Positions 15,643 to 55,450 of a stretch of DNA of 64,000 nucleotides are shown here, one piece after another. The notes under the pieces were generated by a model that had not been told where the DNA came from, did not search any database, and worked only from the letters and a program-made list of their open reading frames with translations. How positions within the stretch are numbered: position 1 is the first letter of the stretch; every line of letters begins with the position of its first letter. Made by a program: the position numbers and the translations under genes. The DNA comes from Heptranchias perlo (Eukaryota). Location of the stretch: positions 14,632,001-14,696,000 of the forward strand of contig NC_090348.1 in assembly GCF_035084215.1 (NCBI RefSeq). The letters are read 5' to 3'.

Positions 15643-17115
15643 TTAAACGTCAGTCAGCAGTTTGCTCTTATTCACACAATTTTGGTTTGCTACAGTGCAG
15701 TTGCCAGTTCTGAGATTTGCTTCTCTAAAATTATCTATGCTGTTGTTCACGTCTTCCTCGATCTCCATATAGTCCGACTTGCTAATAGTGGAGGAGCTGC
15801 GGCTTCGTAAATCACTGTCCGAAGCAATGTTCGGGCAGCTAACGTGCAGGTACTGAGCCTGCTCCTCCCCTTCGGTCTCCCGGTGGTAGAAGTAGTTGAA
15901 GTTGGAGACGATGACGGGCACGGGCAGGGCGATGGTCAGGACCCCGGCGATGGCACACAAGGATCCCACAATCTTTCCTCCGATGGTGATGGGATGCATG
16001 TCTCCATAACCCACCGTAGTCATGGTGACCACTGCCCACCAGAAAGCTTCTGGGATGCTGGTGAAATAGGACAACCGGTCGTCAGCTTCCGCGAAGAACG
16101 CGGCACTGGAAAACAGAATGACTCCGATAAACAGAAAAAAGATAAGCAGTCCCAGCTCCCTCATACTGGCTTTAAGAGTCTGTCCCAAGATCTGGAGGCC
16201 TTTCGAGTGCCGGGACAACTTGAAAATCCGAAATACTCGAACCAAACGGATAACTCTGAGGATGGCCAGAGAAGTGGTCTGTTCCCCGCTCTTGTTGCCC
16301 TCGGCCTCCTCTGCCAATTCAGTGCCCAGGGTGATGAAATAGGGGATGATCGCCACTATGTCAATGAAATTCATGATGTTCTTGAAGAACTCCGCCTTGC
16401 TGGGACAGGCGAAGAATCTGACTGTCAGTTCGAAGGAGAACCAGATGATGCAGAGTGTCTCCACGATAAAGAAGGGGCCGGTGAGGATGCTGGCTTTGTA
16501 GGTGATGGTGGTGTTCCCGACTTCCATCGTCCGTTCCCTGTCGTCCTTCAGTTCAGGCAGGGTCTCCAGGCAGAAGATGACGATGGAGATTAAAATGACC
16601 ATCACGGAGATGATGGCAATTCCCCTGGCTGGCCCCGAGCTCTCCGGATGCTCGAACAGCAGCCATACCTGGCGCTGGTACTCGTTCTCAGGCAATGGGC
16701 GCTCCTCCTCCCTGATGAACCCTTCGTCCTCCCGGAATTTTTCCATCGCCTCCTCGCCCAGCTCGTAGAATTTAATCTCCTCCGAGAACATCTCCAGCGG
16801 CACATTGACGGGTCTGCGGAGCCGGCCCCCCGACTGGTAATAGTACAGGATGGCATCGAAACTGGGGCGATTCCGGTCGAAGAAATACTCGTTCCGCAAC
16901 GGGTCGAAGTAGCGCATCCTCTTCTTGGGGTTTCCCAGCAGGGTGTGGGGGAATTGGGCCAGGGTCTTGAGCTGGGTCTCGAACCTCAGCCCTGAGATGT
17001 TGATGACCACCCGCTCACAACACTCGTGGTCATCGTGGTCCGGCGGGTAGCTGTCCTGAGGGTGGCCGGGCAAAGCCGAGGCTTCGTCTATGTTGTCGCC
17101 GGCGAGAACCGTCAT
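15643..17115 (-). CDS. KCNA1: Voltage-gated potassium channel Kv1.1 (Shaker-related subfamily A member 1), copy 1, 490 aa
   Basis: Kv1.1-type N-terminus ([26 protein letters not shown]), T1 domain, S4 [20 protein letters not shown] filter, PVPVIV hinge, and Kv1.1-specific C-terminus [14 protein letters not shown]; uninterrupted CDS. Confidence 0.97.
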
Positions 17116-18831: not shown

Positions 18832-20996
18832 CAGAATCAAAGAAAGGTTGTAACACGGAAGGAGGCCACTCGGCCCACCGAGTCCGCGCTGGCTCTGTGC
18901 AACACCAATCCAGCTCGTCCCACTCCCCCGCACTATCCCCATAACCCTGCATTTTTTTCCTTTCAAGTATTTATCCAGTTCCTTTTTGAAGGCCATGATT
19001 GAATCTCCACCACCCCCTCAGGCAGTGCATTCCAGATCCTGACCACACCCTGCCTGGAAAAGTTTGTCCTCATGTCACCTTTGGTTCTTTTGCCAATCAC
19101 CTTAAATCTATGTCCTCTGGTTCTTGACCCTTTCACCAATGGGAACAGTTTCTCTCTATCTACTCTGTCTAGACTCTTCATGATTGTGAATACCTCTATC
19201 AAATCTCCTCGCAACCATCTCTGTTCCATGGAGAACAATCCCAGCTTCTCCAGTTTATCCACGTAACTAAAATCCCTCATCCCTGTAATCATTCTGGTAA
19301 ATCTCTTCTGCACCCTCTCTAAGGCCTTCACATCTTTCCTAAAGTGCAGTGCCCAGGACTGGACACACTACTCCAGTTGTGGCCAAACCAGTGTTTTAGA
19401 AAGGTTCATCATGACTTCCATACTTTTGTACTCTATGCCTCTATTTATAAAGCCCAGGATCCCGTATGCTTTTTTAACCGCTTTCTCGACCTGCCCTACC
19501 ATCTTCAACGATTTGTGCACATAGACCCCCAGATCTCTCTGTTCCTGTACCCCTTTTAGAGTTGTGCTCTCCAGTTTATATTGCCTCTCCTCGTTCTTCC
19601 TACTGAAATGTATCACTTCACATTTTTCTGCGTTAAATTTCATCTGCTACGGTGTCCGCCCATGTCACCAGCCTGTCTATATCCTCTTGAAGTCTATCAC
19701 TATCCTCCTCACTGTTCGCTACACTTCCAAGTTTTGTGTCATCTGCAAATTTTTAAAATTGTGCCCCCTACACCCAAGTCCAAAGTCATTAATATATATC
19801 AAGAAAAGCAGTGGTCTCATCACCGAACCCTGGGGAACACCACTTGTACACCTCCCTCCAGACCAAAAAACAACCTTTCACCACCACTCTCTGTTTCCTG
19901 TCACTTAGCCAATTCTGTATCCATGTTGCTACTGCTCTCTTTATTCCATGGGCCGCAATCTTGATGATAAGCCTACCATGCGGCACTTTATCAAACGCTT
20001 TTTGAAAGTCCATATCAACTGCATTGCCCTCATCTACCCTCTCTGTTAACTCATCAAAAAACTCTATCAGGTCAGTTAAACATGATTTTCCTTTAACAAA
20101 TCCATGCTGGCTTTTCCTAATCAATCCAACTCATCCAAGTGACTGTTAATTCTGTCCCGGATTATCGTTTCTAAAAGTTTCCCCACCACTGAGGTTAAAC
20201 TGACTGATCTATTGTTGCTGGGTTTATCCTTACACCCTTTTTTGAAAAAGGGTGTCGCATTTACAATTCTCCAGTCCTCTGGCACCGCCCCCGTATCTAC
20301 GGATGTTTGGAAGATTATGGCCAGCATCTCCACAATTTCCACTCTTACTTCCCTCAGCAACCTAAAATGCATCCCATCCGAACCGGGTGATTTATCTACT
20401 TTAAGTACAGCTAGCCTTTTTAATACCTCTTCTTTATCAATTTTTAGCCCATCCAGTATCTCAACTACATCTTCCTTGACTGAGACTCTGGCAGCATCTT
20501 CTTCCTTGGTAAAGACAGTTGCAAAGTACTCATTTAGTACCTCAGCCATCCCCTCTGCCTCCATGAGTAGATCTCCTTTATGATCCCTAATCGGCCCCAC
20601 CCCTCCTCTTACTACCCATTTACTGTTTACATGCCTGTAGAAGGCTTTTGGATTCCCCTTATGTTGGCCATCAGTCTATTCTCATACTCTCTCTTTGCCC
20701 CTCTTATTTCCTTTTTCACTTCCCCTCTGAACTTTCTATATTCAGCCTGGTTCTCACTTGTGTTATCAACCTGACATCTGTCATACACCCCTTTTTTCCA
20801 TTTCATCTTACTCACTATCTCTTTTGTCATCCAGGGAGCTCTGGCTTTATTTGCCCTATCTTTCTGCCTCATGGGAATGTGCCTAAACTGTACCCGAACC
20901 ATCTCCTCCTGAAAGGACGCCCTCTGTTCAATTACGGTTTTGCCTGCTAAACTTTGATTCCAATTTACCTGGGCCAGATCTGTTCTCATCCCATTG
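18832..20996 (-). mobile_element. 5'-truncated CR1-clade LINE, specific to unit 1
   Basis: Broken ORF2 pieces (KSQHGFVKGKSCLTDLIEFF..DFQKAFDKVPH; KFNAEKCEVIHF; LERVQKRFTRMI); inserted into cagtta|aaaagaaaatgcgc, which is empty in units 2 and 3. Confidence 0.93.
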
Positions 20997-29244: not shown

Positions 29245-30717
29245 TTAAACATCAGTCAGCAGTTTGCTCTTATTCACACAGTTTTGGTTTGCTACAGTGC
29301 AGTTGCCAGTTCTGAGATTTGCTTCTCTAAAATTATCTATGCTGTTGTTCACGTCTTCCTCGATCTCCATATAGTCCGACTTGCTAATAGTGGAGGAGCT
29401 GCGGCTTCGTAAATCACTGTCCGAAGCAATGTTCGGGCAGCTAACGTGCAGGTACTGAGCCTGCTCCTCCCCTTCGGTCTCCCGGTGGTAGAAGTAGTTG
29501 AAGTTGGAGACGATGACGGGCACGGGCAGGGCGATGGTCAGGACCCCGGCGATGGCACACAAGGATCCCACAATCTTTCCTCCGATGGTGATGGGATGCA
29601 TGTCTCCATAACCCACCGTAGTCATGGTGACCACTGCCCACCAGAAAGCTTCTGGGATGCTGGTGAAATAGGACAACCGGTCGTCAGCTTCCGCGAAGAA
29701 CGCGGCACTGGAAAACAGAATGACTCCGATAAACAGAAAAAAGATAAGCAGTCCCAGCTCCCTCATACTGGCTTTAAGAGTCTGTCCCAAGATCTGGAGG
29801 CCTTTCGAGTGCCGGGACAACTTGAAAATCCGAAATACTCGAACCAAACGGATAACTCTGAGGATGGCCAGAGAAGTGGTCTGTTCCCCGCTCTTGTTGC
29901 CCTCGGCCTCCTCTGCCAATTCAGTGCCCAGGGTGATGAAATAGGGGATGATCGCCACTATGTCAATGAAATTCATGATGTTCTTGAAGAACTCCGCCTT
30001 GCTGGGACAGGCGAAGAATCTGACTGTCAGTTCGAAGGAGAACCAGATGATGCAGAGTGTCTCCACGATAAAGAAGGGGCCGGTGAGGATGCTGGCTTTG
30101 TAGGTGATGGTGGTGTTCCCGACTTCCATCGTCCGTTCCCTGTCGTCCTTCAGTTCAGGCAGGGTCTCCAGGCAGAAGATGACGATGGAGATTAAAATGA
30201 CCATCACGGAGATGATGGCAATTCCCCTGGCTGGCCCCGAGCTCTCCGGATGCTCGAACAGCAGCCATACCTGGCGCTGGTACTCGTTCTCAGGCAATGG
30301 GCGCTCCTCCTCCCTGATGAACCCTTCGTCCTCCCGGAATTTTTCCATCGCCTCCTCGCCCAGCTCGTAGAATTTAATCTCCTCCGAGAACATCTCCAGC
30401 GGCACATTGACGGGTCTGCGGAGCCGGCCCCCCGACTGGTAATAGTACAGGATGGCATCGAAACTGGGGCGATTCCGGTCGAAGAAATACTCGTTCCGCA
30501 ACGGGTCGAAGTAGCGCATCCTCTTCTTGGGGTTTCCCAGCAGGGTGTGGGGGAATTGGGCCAGGGTCTTGAGCTGGGTCTCGAACCTCAGCCCTGAGAT
30601 GTTGATGACCACCCGCTCACAACACTCGTGGTCATCGTGGTCCGGCGGGTAGCTGTCCTGAGGGTGGCCGGGCAAAGCCGAGGCTTCGTCTATGTTGTCG
30701 CCGGCGAGAACCGTCAT
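29245..30717 (-). CDS. KCNA1: Kv1.1 copy 2, 490 aa, protein identical to copy 1
   Basis: ORF translation identical to copy 1; only two synonymous differences seen, both near the C-terminus (GAC/GAT, AAT/AAC). Confidence 0.97.
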
Positions 30718-31172
30718 CCTGCCGGCCGACGGCGTTCAGTGGGGCGATTTGGCTGGGTCCGATTCACTGACTGCTACTCCCCCGCGATCGGACATTCGGA
30801 GGCAGCACTTTGGAGGGGGTGGGGAGGATGGGTGGGGGCTCTAAGGGAGAACGGGTCTAACGGATCACTCTGGGTTTTCTGGCTGATTTAACCATTGTGG
30901 GACTCAGCACTTCAAACGGATCCAAGTGATCTCAGCAGCTCAGCAAATTCCGTGGCGCTTCTACCCCCCTCAGGACCAAAGTGCTGCGGAATACAAAAGG
31001 TTAGCATAAAACAAAACCGAGCTTGACATAAATGGGCAAATGTTGGACCTTATGTGAATGGAGCTCATGCACTGAAGAGTTTTCCAGCAGCCCGCACCTC
31101 GCGTTCTTACAACTTCGCAGAATTGTAAACAATTTTACAACACCAAGTTATAGTCCAGCAATTTTATTTTAA

Positions 31173-31213
31173 ATTCACAAGCTTTCGGAGATTTTCTCCT
31201 TCCTCAGGCAAAC
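31173..31213 (-). ncRNA. Minimal type I hammerhead ribozyme motif (left PLE arm)
   Basis: Minus strand GUUUGC-CUGAGGA-A-GGAG-AAAAU-CUCC-GAAA-GCUU-GUGAAU: conserved core, stem II, palindromic AAGCUU stem III and a 6-bp stem I with G-U pairs. Confidence 0.7.
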
Positions 31214-31838
31214 GTTTCAAGAGCTCCTTGATGCCTACGCATTTATACATATTGAACAATACATGGTGTTTACAGACTGCCCCTGCAACTGCCCGTTGCC
31301 AAGGCAATCACCGTGTTCAGACAGAGAGGTGTCACCTGCAGAACCCCCGAATACACATTCAACAAAAAAACAAACAGGGAAAAAAAACAGAGAAAAAAAA
31401 AACACAGAGAGAGGCAGAAACATCCGGAAGGCAGAGAGAGCCAGCAAATGACCCATTATATTAAAAACAGATAACATTTGTTCGCTGGTGGGGTAACGTG
31501 TAGCGTGACATGAACCCAAGATCCCAGTTGAGGCCGTCCTCATGGGTGCGGAACTTGGCTATCAATTTCTGCTCGACGATTTTGCGTTGTCGTGTGTCTC
31601 GAAGGCCGCCTTGGAGTACGCTTACCCGAAGGTCGGTGGATGAATGTCCATGACTGCTGAAGTGTTCCCCGACTGGGAGGGAACCCTCCTGTTTGGCGAT
31701 TGTTGTGCGGTGTCCGTTCATCCGTTGTCGCAGCGTCTGCATGGTCTCGCCAATGTACCATGCTCTGGGGCATCCTTTCCTGCAACGTATGAGGTAGACA
31801 ACGTTGGCCGAGTCACAGGACTATGAACCACCCACCTG

Positions 31839-32216
31839 GTGCATGGTTCATACTCCTGTGACTCGGCCAACGTTGTCTACCTCATACGTTGCAGGAAAGG
31901 ATGCCCCAGAGCATGGTACATTGGCGAGACCATGCAGACGCTGCGACAACGGATGAACGGACACCGCGCAACAATCGCCAAACAGGAGGGTTCCCTCCCA
32001 GTCGGGGAACACTTCAGCAGTCATGGACATTCATCCACCGACCTTCGGGTAAGCGTACTCCAAGGCGGCCTTCGAGACACACGACAACGCAAAATCGTCG
32101 AGCAGAAATTGATAGCCAAGTTCCGCACCCATGAGGACGGCCTCAACCGGGATCTTGGGTTCATGTCACGCTACACGTTACCCCACCAGCGAAAAATTTA
32201 TCTGTTTTTAATATAA
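31839..32216 (+). pseudogene. Truncated PLE ORF, GIY-YIG endonuclease domain only (mirror copy at 31461-31830 on minus strand)
   Basis: VVYLIRC..C...YIGET motif with downstream R, H, E and GLN residues; no RT domain present. Confidence 0.85.
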
Positions 32217-32458
32217 TGGGTCATTTGCTGGCTCTCTCTGCCTTCCGGATGTTTCTGCCTCTCTCTGTGTTTTTTTTTTCTCTGTTTTTTTTCCCTGTTT
32301 GTTTTTTTGTTGAATGTGTATTCGGGGGTTCTGCAGGTGACACCTCTCTGTCTGAACACGGTGATTGCCTTGGCAACGGGCAGTTGCAGGGGCAGTCTGT
32401 AAACACCATGTATTGTTCAATATGTATAAATGCGTAGGCTTCAAGGAGCTCTTGAAAC

Positions 32459-32499
32459 ATTTGCCTGAGGAAGGAGAAAATCTCCGAAAGCTTGTGAAT
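32459..32499 (+). ncRNA. Minimal type I hammerhead ribozyme motif (right PLE arm)
   Basis: AUUUGC-CUGAGGA(32465-32471)-A-GGAG-AAAAU-CUCC-GAAA(32486-32489)-GCUU-GUGAAU, followed by AATAAA at 32504-32509. Confidence 0.7.
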
Positions 32500-32617
32500 T
32501 TAAAATAAAATTGCTGGACTATAACTTGGTGTTGTAAAATTGTTTACAATTGTCAACCCCAGTCCATCACCGGCATCTCCACATCACATCTTCGCAGAAG
32601 GCAGCGAATGCTTTTCG

Positions 32618-32727
32618 CTGGAAAAAAAACAGCTGCAGTATTAGGATAGGAGGGAGGAGGAGGAGGAGCAGGAGGAACTCTGCAACTGCAGGGTTCACTT
32701 GGAGCGAAGTGAAAAATAAACCCTTAC
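32618..32727 (-). other. Predicted 110-nt 5'UTR intron of KCNA1 copy 2
   Basis: Same donor, branch and acceptor signals as copy 1. Confidence 0.65.
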
Positions 32728-33547
32728 CTGATAAGTAAAGGAGGACAAAATGAACAGTGCAGGAATGCGACCCAGCCTCGGAGCAATGCAAAGCTTTCCT
32801 GCGTACTTCTACCTCGCTTTACTATGGATATCGGTTTACAGCTTTGTGTGTATGAGATCTGCTGAAATATTAATAGCCTATATTATACTGTACTGACACC
32901 ATTTACAAGTCATTTGTTCCTGACGTTGGTTGCAGCAAGCAGCGGTCTAGGTTAAGAATGAAAACTCGCCGGCGCTGTTTTAAAACACCACCAATTAAAG
33001 TGCAGAGAAAAAATACGTTAAACTGTGCACACGGACTTCATGGCAGGTTACGGAAAAAGATCTTCTGGTACAGCATCCTGGCCCCTTGTTGAAGGCTCAT
33101 GTGGTGCAGTGTGGAAGACTGAATACATTAAAGCCAAGCGAGCTGGTCATCCCCTAGCATTGCAGTATCAGCAAAAAATAAATAAGAGCAGTGTTTTGTG
33201 GAGTGTAGACAGGGCACCGTTCTCCGGCCAGTAACCTCACAGCTCCAGCAAAGCAGGTCCCACATTACAGTGAGAACAGCCGCTTCCTAAAAAAAATCTC
33301 TACTATTTCTCACATACGAAAAATTGAGATATTTTAGACGCAGTGCAGACAACCCGGTAAAATCCTCAGTGCACACGACGCCGTGCACACTCGCAAAAAA
33401 AAACGCACCATAAACATGAAAACTGCTGCATCATTTGGTTAGATTTTACGACAATGTTCCTTTGACTGCAGCTCACTGTAGCAAACCTTCGAACCCAATC
33501 ACTGCAGCGCGAGTTCAGCCGGCAGGTACAGTGTTACTGTACGGAGA

Positions 33548-33654
33548 TATATATGCAGCAAGCAGCCATACAACAGCCCACATTAATTGTAAACAGTTAC
33601 AGGGATGGACTGTCTTACAGTCTTTTCAATGTTTAATAGGCCAATGCCCCGCCC
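33548..33654 (-). promoter_or_regulatory. Putative core promoter of copy 2
   Basis: TATATAT 33548-33554, CCAAT 33641-33645, GC box 33646-33654. Confidence 0.4.
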
Positions 33655-34445
33655 TTTATTTGCTCAAGATTAGCAAAACAGATCAATTGTTCCCATCACA
33701 TAATATTCTGTTGACAGTTTACAATTAAGTGTTGGACATAATCTGATGATGTTTTAACTGAAGTATCGGCAACTTGAGAAATACGATTTTGTTGGTGTAT
33801 CTATAAAAAACTCTCATCCTCTCCCCGTTTATATTATATTCCCACAATTTTAACTAAACTTGAAAGAACAAACGCGCAGTCAGTTAAAAAGAAAATGCGC
33901 TAAAAACGTAACCAGGACATTCTTGCGTTTTGATGGCCTTCAATTTGAAAACAGCGAAAACAGAGCATCTGCGTGAACTTCAAATGGTTCTGGAAATCGA
34001 TCGAGCCTGACAATTAACAGAGAAAGGGCCGTCACTGGACTCGGGAGTTAATGTTTCACCAGTTATGTAATTTGACTGATGCCAATCCACGTTACCAGAA
34101 GGCGCTGTTCACAGTCCCATTTGGGGTTCGCAACCTCCGACACCACAACACGTATATTTTATTTGAGAATTCTTAATTCAAGGCTGTTTACTGGCGAATT
34201 CTTCCTCACTGTTGGTAAAAGCTTAGAATGTGAAGTAGAGAAAGAAATGATTACCAGCTGCTGCAACTCCTTGTTTGTGAATTTGATGGTTAGCCATTAG
34301 GTCTGTTTCTACAGTGAGTTTATATGACCACAGTGTGTTAACTCTAAATGCTCCGAACAGAAATAAACTATATAAACTGTAACATAACCAGAGACGTATA
34401 AATGCACGGGAATACACGGCCTATGCCTCGGAAACTCGGCCTCTT

Positions 34446-42189: not shown

Positions 42190-43662
42190 TTAAACATCAG
42201 TCAGCAGTTTGCTCTTATTCACACAGTTTTGGTTTGCTACAGTGCAGTTGCCAGTTCTGAGATTTGCTTCTCTAAAATTATCTATGCTGTTGTTCACGTC
42301 TTCCTCGATCTCCATATAGTCCGACTTGCTAATAGTGGAGGAGCTGCGGCTTCGTAAATCACTGTCCGAAGCAATGTTCGGGCAGCTAACGTGCAGGTAC
42401 TGAGCCTGCTCCTCCCCTTCGGTCTCCCGGTGGTAGAAGTAGTTGAAGTTGGAGACGATGACGGGCACGGGCAGGGCGATGGTCAGGACCCCGGCGATGG
42501 CACACAAGGATCCCACAATCTTTCCTCCGATGGTGATGGGATGCATGTCTCCATAACCCACCGTAGTCATGGTGACCACTGCCCACCAGAAACCCTCTGG
42601 GATGCTGGTGAAATAGGACGTCCGGTCGTCAGCTTCCGCGAAGAACGCGGCACTGGAAAACAGAATGACTCCGATAAACAGAAAAAAGATAAGCAGTCCC
42701 AGCTCCCTCATACTGGCTTTAAGAGTCTGTCCCAAGATCTGGAGGCCTTTCGAGTGCCGGGACAACTTGAAAATCCGAAATACTCGAACCAAACGGATAA
42801 CTCTGAGGATGGCCAGAGAAGTGGTCTGTTCCCCGCTCTTGTTGCCCTCGGCCTCCTCTGCCAATTCAGTGCCCAGGGTGATGAAATAGGGGATGATCGC
42901 CACTATGTCAATGAAATTCATGATGTTCTTGAAGAACTCCGCCTTGCTGGGACAGGCGAAGAATCTGACTGTCAGTTCGAAGGAGAACCAGATGATGCAG
43001 AGTGTCTCCACGATAAAGAAGGGGCCGGTGAGGATGCTGGCTTTGTAGGTGATGGTGGTGTTCCCGACTTCCATCGTCCGTTCCCTGTCGTCCTTCAGTT
43101 CAGGCAGGGTCTCCAGGCAGAAGATGACGATGGAGATTAAAATGACCATCACGGAGATGATGGCAATTCCCCTGGCTGGCCCCGAGCTCTCCGGATGCTC
43201 GAACAGCAGCCATACCTGGCGCTGGTACTCGTTCTCAGGCAATGGGCGCTCCTCCTCCCTGATGAACCCTTCGTCCTCCCGGAATTTTTCCATCGCCTCC
43301 TCGCCCAGCTCGTAGAATTTAATCTCCTCCGAGAACATCTCCAGCGGCACATTGACGGGTCTGCGGAGCCGGCCCCCCGACTGGTAATAGTACAGGATGG
43401 CATCGAAACTGGGGCGATTCCGGTCGAAGAAATACTCGTTCCGCAACGGGTCGAAGTAGCGCATCCTCTTCTTGGGGTTTCCCAGCAGGGTGTGGGGGAA
43501 TTGGGCCAGGGTCTTGAGCTGGGTCTCGAACCTCAGCCCTGAGATGTTGATGACCACCCGCTCACAACACTCGTGGTCATCGTGGTCCGGCGGGTAGCTG
43601 TCCTGAGGGTGGCCGGGCAAAGCCGAGGCTTCGTCTATGTTGTCGCCGGCGAGAACCGTCAT
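42190..43662 (-). CDS. KCNA1: Kv1.1 copy 3, 490 aa, differing by L348T and A357G
   Basis: Translation as copies 1/2 except [18 protein letters not shown] versus [18 protein letters not shown]. Confidence 0.97.
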
Positions 43663-48504: not shown

Positions 48505-51160
48505 ACATAAGAAGATACTACATAAGAAATTGGAGCAGGAGTAGGCCATATGGCCCCTACTCCTGCTTTATCATTCAAGAAGATCATGGCTGATCTTCAA
48601 CCTCAACTCAACTTTCCCGCCCTATCCCCACATCCCCTGATTCTCTTCGTGTCCAAATATCCATCGATCTCAGTCTTGAATATACTCAATGACTGAGCAT
48701 TCACAGCCCTCTGGGGTAGAGAATTCCAAAGATTCACAACCCTCTGAGTGAAGAAATCTTTCCTCATCTCAGCCTTAAATTGCCAATCCCTTATCTTGAG
48801 ACTGTGACCCGTAGGGCTAGACACTCCAGCCAGGGGAAACAGCCTCTCAGCATCTACCCGGTCAAGCCCTCTAAGAATTTTATACATTTCAATGAGGTCA
48901 CCTCTCATTCTTCTAACTCCAGACAATATAGGCCCATTGTACTCAATCCCTCCTCGTAGGACAGCCCTCTCATTCCAGGAATCAATCTAGTGAACCTTTG
49001 TTGCACCGTCTCTAAGGCAAGTGTATCCTTCCTTACGTAAGGAGATCAAAACTATACACTACTCCAGGTGTGGCCTCACCAGAGCCCTATATAATTGCAG
49101 GAAGTCTTTACTCTTATACTCCAGCCCCCTTGCAATAAAGGCTAACATATCATTTGTTTTCCTAATTGCTTGCTGTACCTGCATGTTAACTTTCTGTGAT
49201 TCATGTACAAGGACACTCAAAACCCTTCTCACTACCCACATTTCTTAGTCTCTCACCTTTTAAAAAATATTCTGCTTTTCTGTTCTTTCTACCAAAGTGG
49301 ATAATTTCACATTTCGCCACATTATACTCCATCTGCCATCTTCTCACCCACTCTCTTAACCTGTCCATATCCCTTTGCAGTCTCTTGGCATCCACCTCAC
49401 AGCTTACTTTCCCACCTAGCTTTGTATCATCAGCAAACGTGGATACATTACACTCGGTCCCTTCATCTAAGTCATTAAACTATATTGTAAACAGCTGAGG
49501 CCCAAACACTGATCCTTGCGGCATCCCACTAATTACAACCTGCCAACCCAAAAATGACCCGTTTATTCCTACTCTGTGTTTTATTTAACCAATCCTCAAT
49601 CCATGTTAATATATTACCCCCTTTTCGCATCCATTAACCAATCCTTAATCCATGTTAATATATTACCTCCAATTCACATCCATTAACCAATCCTTAATCC
49701 ATGTTGATATATTACCCCCAATCTCATGAGCCCTAATCATTTGTAACAATTATTTATGTATCGATTACCTTTTGAAAATCCAAATATACTACATTCACTA
49801 GTTCCCCCTTATCCACTCTGCTAGTTACACCCTCAAAAAAATTCTAATAGAGTCATCTAACAAAATTTCCCTTTCAGAAAACCATATTGTCTCTGCCTAG
49901 TCATATTATGATTTTCTAAGTGCCCTGGTACTATGCCCTGAATAATAGATTCTAGCATTTTCCCTACTACTGATGTCAGGCTAACTGGCCTAAAGTTCCC
50001 TATTTTCTCTCGCCCTCCTTTCTTGAATAGCAGAGTTACATTTGCTACCTTCCAATCCACAGGGACCATTCTAAAATCTAGGGAATTCTGGAAGATCAAA
50101 ACCAATGCATCCACTATCTCTGCAGCCACCTTAGGATGTAGGCCATCAGGTCCAGGGGATTTGTCAGCTTTTAGTCCCATTAATTTCTCCAGTACTTTTT
50201 CTTTAGTAATCTTTAAGTTCCTCACTCTCATTAGACTGTTGGTTCCCCACTATTACTGTTGTTTTTTTTTGTTGTCTTCTGTTAAGACAGATACAAAATA
50301 TTTGTTTAACATCTCTGCCATTTCCTTATTCCCCATTATTTTTTCTCCTGTCTCTGCCTCTAAGGAACACACGTTTACTTTCGCTAATCTCTTCCTTTTT
50401 ACATACTTGTAGAAGCTCTTATGATCTGTTTTTATATTTCTTGCTAATTTACTCATTCAATTTTCTCCCTCTATCAAATTCTTAGTCATCCTTTGCTGAT
50501 TTCGAAAACCCTTCCAATCCTCAGGCATACTACTCTTTTTGGCAACATTGTAAGCATCTTTTTTTAATCTAATACTATCCTTAACTTCTCGAGTTAGCCA
50601 TAGTTGGATCATTTTCCCTGTGGAGTTTTATTCCTCAAGGGACTATGTATTCTTTGAGAATTATGAATTTTAAAAAAAAGTTCACCATTGCTTATCTACC
50701 ATCATATCTTTTAATCTAATTTCCCAATCTATCTTAGCCAACTTGCCCCTCATACCTATGTAATTGACTTTGTTTAAAATTAAGCCCCTAGTTTTGGACT
50801 TAACATCATCATTCTTAAATTCAATATGAAATTCTATCATATTATGATCACTCTACCCAGAAGGATCCTTAACTATAAGATTACTAATTAACCCTATGTC
50901 ATTACACAATACTAGATCTAAAATAGTCTGTTCCCTCGTTGGTGCCTCCATATATTGTTCTAGAAAACTGTCTCGAATGCATTCCATGAACTCGTCATTC
51001 AAACTGTTTTTGCTAATTTGGTTTGCCCACTCTATATGAAGGTTAAAGGCCCCACGATTATTGCATTACCCTTGTTACATGCTCCTCTAGTTTCCTGATT
51101 TATACTCTGTCCAACATTATAACTGTTGCTAGGGGGCCTATAAACTACTCTCACCAGTGT
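48505..51160 (-). mobile_element. Degenerate CR1-clade LINE
   Basis: 3' end cataagaaattggagcaggagtaggcc; ORF2 fragments (KSPGPDGLHP, WQMEYNVAKCEIIHFG, RRMRGDLIEMYK). Confidence 0.9.
49585..49720. repeat. 49-bp tandem triplication inside the CR1
   Basis: ttaaccaatcct(c/t)aatccatgtt(a/g)atatattacc at 49585, 49634 and 49683. Confidence 0.85.
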
Positions 51161-51164
51161 TTCC

Positions 51165-52650
51165 ACTTTCCAGCACTTGGTCCGTAGCCTTGTAGATCAC
51201 AGCACTTCAGATGCACATCCAGATACTTCTTAAATGAGTTGAGAGTTTCTGCCTCTACCACCCTTTCAGGCAGTGAGTTCCAGAACCCGGCCACCCTTTG
51301 GGTGAAAAAAATCTTTTCTCACTCCCCTCTAATTCTTCTACCAATCACTTTAAATCTATGCCCTTTGGTTATTGACCTCTCTGCTAAGGGAAATAGGTCC
51401 TTCCTATCCACACTATCTATGCCCATCATAATTTTGTACACCTCAATTAAATCACCCCTCAGCCTTCTCTGTTCCAAAGAAAACAACCCCAGCCTATCCA
51501 ATCTTTCCTCATAGCTAAAATTCTCCAGTCCTGGCAACATCCTCGTAAATCTCCTCTGTACTCTCTCTAGTTCAATTACATTCTTCCTGCAATGTGGTGA
51601 CCAGAACTTTACACAGTACTCAAGCTGAGGCCTAACCAGTGCTTTATACAGTTCCAGCATAACCTCCCTGCTCTTATGTTCTATGCCTCGGCTAATAAAG
51701 GAAAGTATCCCATGTGCCTTCTTAAGCCCTTTATCTATCTGTCCTGCTACCTTCAGGGATCTGTGGACATGCACTCCAAGGTCCCTTACTTCCTCTACAT
51801 TTTTTAGTATCCTCCCATCTGTTGTATATTCCCTTGCCTTGTTTGCCCTCCCCAAATGCATTAACTCAAACTTATCCAGATTGAATTCCATTTGCCACTT
51901 TTCTGCCCATCTGACCAGTCCATTGATATCTTCCTGCAATCTACAGCTTTCCTCCACACTATCAACCACACAGCCAATTTTTGTATCATCTGCAAACTTC
52001 TTAATCATGCCCCCTATATTTAAGTCCAAATCATTAATATATTTCACAAAAAGCAAAGGACCTCATACTGAGCCCTGTGGAACCCCACTGGAAACAGCCT
52101 TCCAGTCACAAAAACATCCATCAACCATTACCCTTTGCTTCCTGCCACTGAGCCAATTTTGGATCCAACTTGCCACTCTCCCTTGGATCCCATGGGCTTG
52201 TATTTTTTTGACCAGTCTGCCAAATGGGACCTTGTCAAAAGCCTTGCTAAAATCCATGTAGACTACATCAAATTACCCTCATCGACCCTCCCCGTTACCT
52301 CCTCAAAAAATTCAATCAAGTTAGTCAGACACAACCTTCCCTTAACAAATCCATGCTGACTGTCCTTGATTACTCTGTGTCTTTCTAAGTGACGGTTTAT
52401 CTTGTCCCTCAGAATTGATTCCAATAATTTGCCCAGCACAGAGGTTAGACTGACTGGCCATAATTACTTGGTCTATCCCTCGCTCCCTTTTTACACAATG
52501 GTACAACATTAGCAGTCCTCCAATCTTCCGACACCACAGCTGTATCCAGTGAGGATTGGAAAATGATGCTATTTCGTCCCTTGCTTCTTTTAACAGCCTG
52601 GGATACATTTCATCCAGCCTGATGATTCATCTACTTTCAAAGATGCTAAT
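51165..52650 (-). mobile_element. Second CR1-clade LINE fragment (RT domain)
   Basis: DFSKAFDKVP, SGVPQGSV, YINDL..KFADDTK, LERVQRRFTRML in ORFs 51319-52257. Confidence 0.92.
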
Positions 52651-53977: not shown

Positions 53978-55450
53978 TCATACAATCATAGAATGGTTAC
54001 AGCACAGGAGGCCGCCTATTGGCCCATCGAGCCTTTGCCGGCTCTTCGTAAGAGCAATCCAGTTAGCCCCATTTGCCTGCTCTTTCCCTGTAGCCCTGCC
54101 ATTTTTTTTCCTTCACATATTTATCCAATTCCTTTTTTAAAGCTATGATTGAATCTGCTTCCACCACCCTTTCAGGCAGCACATTCCAGATCATAACTAC
54201 TCGCTGTGTAAAAATTTTTTCCTCACATCGCATTTGGTTCTTTTGCCAATCACCTTAAATCTGTGTCCTCTGGTTCTCGATCCGCCAATGGGAACAGTTT
54301 CTCTTTATTTACTTTATCTAAACCAGTCATGATTTTTGAACACTTAGAAGTAAGAAACATAAGAAATAGGAGCAGGAGTAGGCCATCAGCCCCTCGAGCC
54401 TGCTCCGCCATTCAATAAGATCATGGCTGATCTGATCCTAACCTCAAATCTAAATTCATGTCTAAATTCATGTCCAATTTCCTGCCCGCTCCCCGTAACC
54501 CCTAATTCCCTTTACTTCTAGGAAACTGTCTATTTCTGTTTGAATTTATTTAATGATGTAGCTTCCACAGCTTCCTGGGGCAGCAAATTCCACAGACCTA
54601 CCACCCTGAGTGAAGAAGTTTCTCCTCATCTCAGTTTTGAAAGAGCAGCCCCTTATTCTAAGATTATGCCCCCTCGTTCTAGTTTCACCCATCCTTGGGA
54701 ACATCCTTACCACATCCACCCGATCAAGCCCCTTCACAATCTTATATGTTTCAATAAGATCGCCTCTCATTCTTCTGAACTCCAATGAGTAGAGTCCCAA
54801 TCTACTCAACCTCTCCTCATATGTCCGCCCCCTCATCCCCGGGATTAACCGAGTGAACCTTCTTTGTACTGCCTCGAGAGCAAGTATGTCTTTTCTTAAG
54901 TGTGGACACCAAAACTGTATGCAGTATTCCAGGTGCGGTCTCACCAATACCTTATATAACTGCAGCAATACCTCCCTGTTTTTATATTCTATCCCCCTAG
55001 CAATAAACGCCTTCTTGATCACCTGCTGCACCTGCATACTAACTTTTTGATTTTCTTGCACTAGGACCCCCAGATCCCTTTGTACTGCAGTACTTTCCAG
55101 TTTCTCGCCATTAAGATAATAACTTGCTCTCCGATTTTTCCTGCCAAAGTGCATAACCTCACATTTTCCAATATTGTATTGCACCTGCCAAATCTCCGCC
55201 CACTCACCCAGCCTGTCTATATCCCCTTGATATCAAATCTCCTCTCAACCATCTCTGCCCTAAGAACAACCCCAGCTTCTCCAGTCTACCCATGTAACTG
55301 AAGTCCCTCGTCCCTGGAACCATTCTAGTAAATCTTTTCTGCACCCTATCTAAGGCCTTCATGACCTTCCTAAAGTGCGGTGCCCAGAATTGGACACAAT
55401 ACTCCAGTTGTGGCTGAACCAGTGCTTTATAAAGGTTCAACATAACTTCC
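53978..55450 (-). mobile_element. CR1 3' fragment interrupted by a younger CR1 (~54344-55229)
   Basis: Outer element breaks at gatttttgaacac and resumes at atatcaaatctcctctcaacc; inner element has its own 3' end gaaacataagaaataggagcagg and ORF 54546-55184. Confidence 0.85.

What the first reader, a model, noticed from the sequence alone, without database searches (positions are those of the whole stretch)
31161..31213. Hammerhead ribozyme and poly(A) signal placed in sense within the Kv1.1 copy 2 leader
Seen: the minus (mRNA) strand reads GUUUGC CUGAGGA A GGAG AAAAU CUCC GAAA GCUU GUGAAU, followed by AAUAAA (+ strand ttttatt at ~31162-31168). Established: PLE terminal repeats carry minimal hammerheads with a very short palindromic stem III that cleave mainly as dimers. 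Inference: self-cleavage at CUU or premature polyadenylation ~450 nt upstream of the ATG would separate cap from CDS. Pairing with the antisense right arm would mask the motif, giving a possible conformational switch.
Basis: partly seen in the sequence, partly recalled or inferred. Interest (0 to 1): 0.7.

Follow-up and report, generated by a model that had tools for sequence, protein, structure and literature searches.

The report
Transposon hammerhead upstream of Kv1.1 copy
The hammerhead-ribozyme motif and poly(A) signal upstream of one of three tandem Kv1 potassium-channel genes are the standard end of a young Penelope-like retrotransposon that carries this motif in over 60,000 places in the genome, and here they are predicted to be buried in a 700-base-pair hairpin, so they are likely an inert passenger and not a switch.

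Summary
The motif is real: a minimal type-I hammerhead (31213-31173, minus strand) followed by AAUAAA, 461 and 446 nt upstream of the copy-2 ATG. It is not special to this gene. It is the 3' end of a young, intact-family Penelope-like element (PLE) inserted as a 1,477-bp tail-out palindrome with a 14-bp target duplication; copies 1 and 3 are empty. The motif has 63,700 exact genomic matches (0 for the control). The extra A is a described PLE-hammerhead trait, not a defect. The switch reading is weak: the antisense arm is transcribed first, pairing costs about 71 kcal/mol to undo, there is no second sense hammerhead to dimerise with, and published PLE hammerheads are inactive alone. The insert likely lies in a 5'-UTR intron, but an alternative acceptor would make it exonic; the RNA contigs did not decide this. 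Any effect on copy 2 more likely comes from the long duplex itself. The scan noted the same kind of element earlier in two other genomes. New member of a known kind; interest 0.2.

The parts
31173..31213 (-). Minimal type-I hammerhead motif of the left PLE arm, sense to the Kv1 copy-2 transcript; predicted cut 31179/31178
31163..31168 (-). AAUAAA of the element, invariant in 23 of 23 aligned copies; GU-rich stretch follows at about 31145-31125
31121..31830 (-). Left arm: 5'-truncated PLE 3' end (GIY-YIG C-terminal part, pseudo-LTR), without the tail
31827..32585 (+). Right arm: the same PLE 3' end with the ~35-nt tail; antisense on the Kv1 transcript and transcribed first; 99.3% identical to an intact unit
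31827..31830 (.). 4-nt microhomology joining the two arms head to head
31839..32207 (+). Open 123-aa C-terminal part of the PLE endonuclease (Pfam GIY-YIG E 2e-4, 21.9 bits, just under the 22.6 cut-off)
32459..32499 (+). Mirror hammerhead of the right arm (family allele); its complement pairs with the sense motif in the Kv1 transcript
31109..31122 (+). Left copy of the 14-bp target-site duplication (13 of 14 identical; last 2 nt shared with the arm end)
32586..32599 (+). Right copy of the target-site duplication; present once in the empty copies 1 and 3
32723..32731 (-). Predicted splice donor CAG|GUAAGG (intron would begin at about 32728), 143 nt before the insert
   Evidence: prediction only
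32618..32650 (-). Predicted acceptor A (U-tract + CAG ending 32618); if used, the insert is exonic
   Evidence: prediction only
30985..31020 (-). Predicted acceptor B (branch-like GCUAAC, pyrimidine tract, CAG ending 30985); if used, the insert is intronic
   Evidence: prediction only
29245..30717 (-). Kv1-family (Kv1.1-like) channel ORF, copy 2 of 3, 490 aa, intact

Best explanation
The motif is the hammerhead and poly(A) signal in the terminal repeat of a young Penelope-like retrotransposon that inserted upstream of Kv1 copy 2 as a tail-out palindrome, and it is likely an inert passenger because it is predicted to pair with the antisense arm as soon as it is transcribed. Shown: the insert, its target duplication, the empty sister genes, the parent element and the family-wide motif. 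Inferred: both nicked target strands primed reverse transcription near the element's 3' end (one with, one without the tail) and the two copies joined at a 4-nt microhomology. Inferred: in the Kv1 pre-mRNA the right arm comes first, the duplex zips up from the centre for about 620 bp before the hammerhead emerges, and neither ribozyme nor AAUAAA is single-stranded. Inferred (about 70%): the hairpin lies in a 5'-UTR intron and is spliced out.
For: Insert of 1,477 bp only in copy 2, with a 14-bp duplication. Arms 99.3% identical to intact 3,081-bp tandem units with a 902-aa ORF that hits RVT_1 at E 3e-10. 63,700 exact matches of the family pattern, 7,100 of the right-arm 38-mer, 381 of the left-arm 38-mer, controls 0. 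Among 99 neighbouring pairs in the first 100 listed matches, 42 lie within 6.2 kb and 26 of these are tail-out like this one. Folding: hammerhead alone -7.6 kcal/mol, duplex with the arm -74.4, 709 arm-arm pairs, all six AAUAAA bases paired; forcing the hammerhead costs 70.8 kcal/mol, and in 5 of 5 growing-transcript snapshots 40-41 of the newest 41 nt pair with the arm. Without the arm, stem I probability is 0.00-0.01 in 3 of 3 contexts with flanks. Literature: single min-HHR showed no detectable cleavage, dimers low (PMC4209133); Anolis PLE HHR cut only with the element's protein, was dispensable for insertion, and left no RNA-seq ends at the site (PMC11167929); slow intronic ribozymes did not affect splicing (as cited in PMC10919898). 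Genomic copies do not pile up at the cut site: 166 of 44,320 depart from the family there, against 234 and 221 at two neighbouring positions. Inverted truncated copy, one-sided tail and TSD are described PLE traits.
Against: No cleavage, splicing or 3'-end data for this locus. Folding is equilibrium modelling; helicases, ADAR editing or proteins could open the duplex in a cell. The catalytic core is intact and the stems covary across the family (4 of 11 pairs changed on both sides, 2 of 500 shuffles), so the family motif is under selection for something, and the isolated 41-mer does fold as a hammerhead (stem I 0.66-0.93). The parent family looks active, so helper protein and partner ribozymes may exist in trans. 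Acceptor A is also a good match, so the intronic placement is uncertain.
Confidence: 0.8

Rival explanations
1. The long duplex, not the ribozyme, lowers copy-2 output: acceptor A is used or splicing is disturbed, so a 709-bp hairpin with 31 ATGs stays in the leader and would block scanning or draw editing, retention or small-RNA silencing. Compatible with an inert hammerhead.
For: Acceptor A has an 8-U tract and lies 111 nt from the donor in the empty copy; the 111-nt stretch has 68% pyrimidine and no ATG. The insert has 31 ATGs on the mRNA strand. The insert sits only 143 nt from the donor and 124 nt from acceptor B.
Against: Acceptor B has a better branch-point match and is identical in all three copies; the stretch between A and B has 4 ATGs in 157 nt. 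The copy-2 ORF is intact, though the insert is young.
Confidence: 0.3
2. The element's AAUAAA with its GU-rich downstream stretch ends some copy-2 transcripts early, as a constant leak and not a switch.
For: AAUAAA invariant in 23 of 23 copies; the only AAUAAA between donor and acceptor B, absent from the empty copy; 1,560 nt from the donor.
Against: All six bases and the downstream stretch lie in the paired arm. Suppression of intronic poly(A) sites by U1 near a donor is recalled knowledge (only search listings seen).
Confidence: 0.1
3. One reading: the hammerhead cuts the leader when the antisense arm is unavailable, with a partner ribozyme or PLE protein supplied in trans, so PLE activity would turn copy 2 down.
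For: Intact core, sense orientation, palindromic AGCU able to pair in trans; protein-assisted cleavage shown for an Anolis PLE hammerhead; intact ORFs of the family in the genome.
Against: 70.8 kcal/mol penalty and order of synthesis; no second sense copy in the window; the left-arm stem I has one more G-U pair than the parent; present in 1 of 3 paralogues and about 1% diverged, so no sign of co-option.
Confidence: 0.04
4. The palindrome is an assembly fold-back artefact.
For: Arms are 97-99% complementary with almost no loop; such structures trouble assemblers.
Against: A target duplication, a tail on one arm only, arm-specific differences, a 4-nt microhomology joint and many like palindromes elsewhere.
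Confidence: 0.03

Closest known systems
Minimal hammerheads (min-HHR) of metazoan Penelope-like elements (Cervera and de la Pena 2014, PMC4209133; parts 1-2 of 4 read)
   Same: Type-I core, extra nucleotide between 9 and 10.1, G10.1-C11.1, palindromic 15-16 region without stem III, location in the PLE terminal repeat, mostly in truncated copies.
   Different: Copy number is far higher (63,700 exact matches of one pattern against about 4,000 and 9,000 reported for coelacanth and Xenopus, by another search method); stem II is 5 bp, shorter than the 7-8 bp of Schistosoma; the cut triplet is CUU.
PAc (Poseidon PLE of Anolis; PMC11167929; passages and second half of main text read)
   Same: RT plus C-terminal GIY-YIG ORF in tandem units, hammerhead in the pLTR, two kinds of 3' end (with and without the tail), no trace of cut-site ends.
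   Different: In PAc the ORF starts inside the hammerhead; here the ORF's first ATG follows the tail, over 100 nt downstream of it. The clade of this element was not determined.
PLE insertions with an inverted 5'-truncated copy, one-sided tail and TSD (PMC8557442, PMC3846280; passages read)
   Same: Head-to-head inverted arms, tail at one end, short target duplication, microhomology at the joint.
   Different: Both arms are equally truncated (about 710-760 bp) and the insert sits in the 5' region of one of three channel-gene copies.
Ribozymes that act on host mRNA: CPEB3 intronic HDV-like ribozyme (PMC10919898, passages), Clec2 and amniote intronic hammerheads (PMC6765202, passage)
   Same: A self-cleaving motif in sense within a host transcript, close to splice sites.
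   Different: Those are conserved single-locus ribozymes, and CPEB3 cuts alone with a 2-3 min half-life; this one is a recent insert in one paralogue, needs a partner and is covered by its own complement.

Membership tests
PLE minimal hammerhead | Catalytic core CUGANGA, GAAA, UH | tested here: met
   core letters invariant in 23 of 23 aligned copies apart from N7 and one G8 change; copies were picked by likeness to this motif
PLE minimal hammerhead | Extra nucleotide between 9 and 10.1; G10.1-C11.1 pair | tested here: met
   A in 48 of 49 parsed copies; G-C in 23 of 23
PLE minimal hammerhead | Palindromic positions 15-16 with no stable stem III | tested here: met
   AGCU here and in 23 of 23 aligned copies
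PLE minimal hammerhead | Stems I and II with compensatory change | tested here: met
   90.4% of cells paired, 4 of 11 pairs changed on both sides, 2 of 500 shuffles; slid controls 22-50%. Related copies inflate this; two outer pairs are broken in 11 of 23 rows
PLE minimal hammerhead | Self-cleavage as a dimer or with protein help | not testable with these tools
   Needs an in vitro assay; genomic 5' ends show no excess at the cut
Rfam hammerhead families | Match to a curated covariance model | tested here: not met
   No hammerhead hit at E<=10; the motif lacks stem III
Penelope-like element (EN+) | One ORF with RT and C-terminal GIY-YIG, in tandem units | tested here: met
   902-aa ORF in 3,081-bp tandem units (L031), RVT_1 E 3e-10; GIY-YIG E 2e-4 on the window fragment, slightly under Pfam's cut-off and not reported on the full protein
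Penelope-like element (EN+) | Inverted truncated copy, optional 30-40-nt tail at one end, TSD | tested here: met
   tail in 13 of 30 sampled copies
Non-LTR retrozyme | Non-coding direct tandem repeats, each with a hammerhead | tested here: not met
   Arms are inverted and carry endonuclease-coding sequence
Host-regulatory ribozyme (CPEB3, Clec2 type) | Conserved at the locus | tested here: not met
   Absent from copies 1 and 3; 99.3% identical to a mobile parent. Other species could not be examined
Host-regulatory ribozyme (CPEB3, Clec2 type) | Folds and cuts in its own transcript | tested here: inconclusive
   Predicted not to fold; no bench data
5'-UTR exon (leader) location | Retained in the mature mRNA | tested here: inconclusive
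   Two candidate acceptors; contigs gave no joint

The most novel reading that the evidence does not exclude
Active PLE RNA or protein supplied in trans unmasks and completes the hammerhead in host pre-mRNAs, so that retrotransposon activity cuts Kv1 copy-2 transcripts, and those of the many other genes holding a sense copy among 60,000-plus motifs, and tunes channel-paralogue dosage.
Probability: 0.04. Interest if true: 0.75.

Novelty: new member of a known kind. Interest (0 to 1): 0.2.

Why it matters
As it stands it is an ordinary retrotransposon insertion carrying a described ribozyme motif. Its use is as a natural experiment: three near-identical channel genes, one with a 709-bp hairpin in its 5' region, let the effect of a PLE palindrome on splicing, editing and output be measured against built-in controls. 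The parent family has intact ORFs in tandem and would suit work on what PLE hammerheads do, which is still open. If the trans-cleavage case were true, it would link transposon activity directly to host mRNA turnover.

Tried and rejected
Rfam, whole window and local: no hammerhead. Sequencing runs: no holder on record as RNA; 10 listed, RNA only guessed. Contigs of four runs of one sample laid on 30718-31335: one 877-nt contig covers 30718-30801, the bins from 30802 to 31116 have no cover, no joint is listed, none of the 32 listed pieces bridges the insert border, and no poly(A)-like loose end is among the 24 rows shown of 151; the element part is covered by thousands of short contigs that may come from any copy. 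This decides neither splicing nor expression. No read data were obtained for the donor, the coding region or copy-specific expression. Mammalian KCNA1 gene structure: three searches and one paper gave nothing usable; a 5'-UTR intron in mammals is my recall only. Lunse et al. 2017 is not held; known only through a review passage. PMC3365414 held only a reference. The idea that the extra A or the G-U pairs in stem I are private defects was rejected: the extra A is family-wide, two of the three G-U pairs are in the intact parent, and only the outermost is particular to the left arm. The idea that ribozyme cutting sets the 5' ends of genomic copies was tested and not supported; 26 of 30 sampled departures at the cut are truncations, 4 point changes. 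A homodimer could not be modelled properly in ViennaRNA. A search for further copies of the Kv1 5' region found only the three in the window and one 41-nt match. No supplements were read; those of PMC4209133 list more min-HHRs and may include this family.

Full report
Observation. The minus strand at 31213-31173 reads as reported and is followed by AAUAAA at 31168-31163. It parses as a type-I hammerhead without a stable stem III: a 6-pair stem I with three G-U pairs, the CUGAGGA core, one extra A, a 5-pair stem II, GAAA, the palindrome AGCU, and a predicted cut after CUU at 31179/31178. The cut is 461 nt and the signal 446 nt upstream of the ATG at 30717. Rfam has no hammerhead match at E<=10.

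Setting. The window is part of a 3.25-Gb genome; a cartilaginous fish is my inference and was not tested. It holds three tandem minus-strand ORFs of 490 aa, Kv1-family by PDB search and by the Rfam K-channel editing element; the Kv1.1 label rests on recall of the termini, as the best full-length PDB hit is Kv1.2. Only copy 2 has a 1,477-bp insert, 31109-32585. It is two 5'-truncated 3' ends of one element, head to head, joined at a 4-nt microhomology (31827-31830) and flanked by a 14-bp duplication with one mismatch. Each arm encodes the C-terminal part of a GIY-YIG-type endonuclease; only the right arm carries the ~35-nt tail.

Parent element. Motif matches spaced 3,081 bp apart led to intact tandem units with a 902-aa ORF (RVT_1, E 3e-10), to which the right arm is 99.3% identical. 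The inverted truncated copy, one-sided tail and short duplication are described PLE traits (PMC8557442 and PMC3846280, passages), and the two kinds of 3' end match the two reverse-transcription start sites found in vitro for the Anolis element (PMC11167929). In 30 sampled copies 13 have the tail and 17 do not. The insert is therefore a recent, genuine transposition product; arm-specific differences argue against an assembly fold-back.

The motif is a family property. A pattern for it has 63,700 exact matches and 0 for the reversed control; the right-arm 38-mer has 7,100 and the left-arm 38-mer 381. The extra A is in 48 of 49 parsed copies, and Cervera and de la Pena list it among the conserved traits of PLE hammerheads (PMC4209133, parts 1-2 of 4). 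Two of the three G-U pairs are in the intact parent; only the outermost is particular to the left arm. In 23 aligned copies (chosen from the 30 loci, mirror duplicates and copies without a motif left out) 90.4% of stem cells pair and 4 of 11 pairs change on both sides, so the family keeps the fold. AAUAAA is invariant in those 23. The sense orientation needs no explanation: a tail-out palindrome shows one copy in sense on either strand, and 26 of the 42 close pairs among the first 100 listed matches have this layout.

Can it act on the Kv1 transcript? The minus-strand transcript makes the antisense right arm first. Folding gives 709 arm-arm pairs that cover the hammerhead and all of AAUAAA; the motif alone folds at -7.6 kcal/mol and its duplex at -74.4. 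Forcing the hammerhead costs 70.8 kcal/mol, and in five snapshots of the growing RNA 40-41 of the newest 41 nt pair with the arm. That is a lock, not a switch. Even without the arm, stem I has probability 0.00-0.01 once flanks are included, though 0.66-0.93 in the bare 41-mer. No second sense hammerhead is in the window. Published PLE hammerheads showed no cleavage singly and little as dimers, or cut only with the element's protein and left no ends in RNA-seq. In this genome, copies do not start preferentially at the cut: 166 depart from the family there beside 44,154 that continue, against 234 and 221 at neighbouring positions. These are models and priors; cell factors could open the duplex.

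Leader or intron? A donor CAG|GUAAGG lies at 32728. Two acceptors fit: A at 32618, which would put the insert in the exon, and B at 30985, with a branch-point match, which would put it in an intron of about 270 nt in the empty copies. I favour B at about 70%, partly from recall that mammalian KCNA1 has a 5'-UTR intron, which my searches did not confirm. The contigs laid did not decide it. If intronic, a slow ribozyme should not disturb splicing (Fong et al. 2009 as cited in PMC10919898). If exonic, a 709-bp hairpin with 31 ATGs would matter far more than the ribozyme.

Verdict. Observation confirmed; interpretation partly supported. It is a new member of a known kind, a PLE minimal hammerhead in a young palindromic insertion, most likely inert at this locus (0.8). 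Two earlier notes of this scan describe the same kind of element in other genomes; none covers this place. I did not search for a paper on this particular locus, so no claim is made that it is unreported. The boldest reading not excluded is cleavage of host pre-mRNA helped in trans by PLE RNA or protein (0.04; interest 0.75 if true). Overall interest 0.2.

Noticed in passing
window 15643-17115, 29245-30717, 42190-43662 (minus): Three tandem, intact, nearly identical Kv1.1-like genes in 12-13-kb units that differ by 5-14% outside the gene but hardly at all in coding and promoter regions. Copy 3 differs from copies 1 and 2 at two residues near the pore (L348T, A357G); copy 2 is a mosaic, like copy 1 there and like copy 3 in its flanks, which suggests gene conversion. 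No further copy of the 5' region in the assembly.
   Followed up: partly
window 15901-16014, 29503-29616, 42448-42561 (minus): Each copy keeps the Rfam potassium-channel RNA-editing element (RF00485, 112.9 bits). In copy 2 a 709-bp duplex lies 1.5 kb upstream in the same pre-mRNA and might alter editing there.
   Followed up: no
G000:C1:8284478-8284553, C2:142181297-142181372 and others: Many tiny tail-out palindromes turn exactly at the 5' strand of hammerhead stem I (adjacent matches). Up to 16 of 24 sampled copies with a core seem to begin within 20 nt upstream of it (a rough count, at least three continue as another subfamily). The 5' ends favour the ribozyme's upstream edge, not its cut site.
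   Followed up: partly
L031-L034 (G000:C1:3.12, 4.43-4.47, 4.91 Mb): Intact PLE units in direct and inverted tandem, 99.9-100% identical, inserted in simple tandem repeats; the family looks currently active.
   Followed up: partly
window about 33640-33655: CCAAT and GC-box-like motifs upstream of the predicted first exon, the same in all three copies; a likely promoter.
   Followed up: no
window 18835-20319, 48520-49377, 51253-52568, 53984-55450: Fragments of another repeat family with short RT-like ORFs at 51319-52008 and 54546-55154, CR1/L2-like by recall.
   Followed up: no
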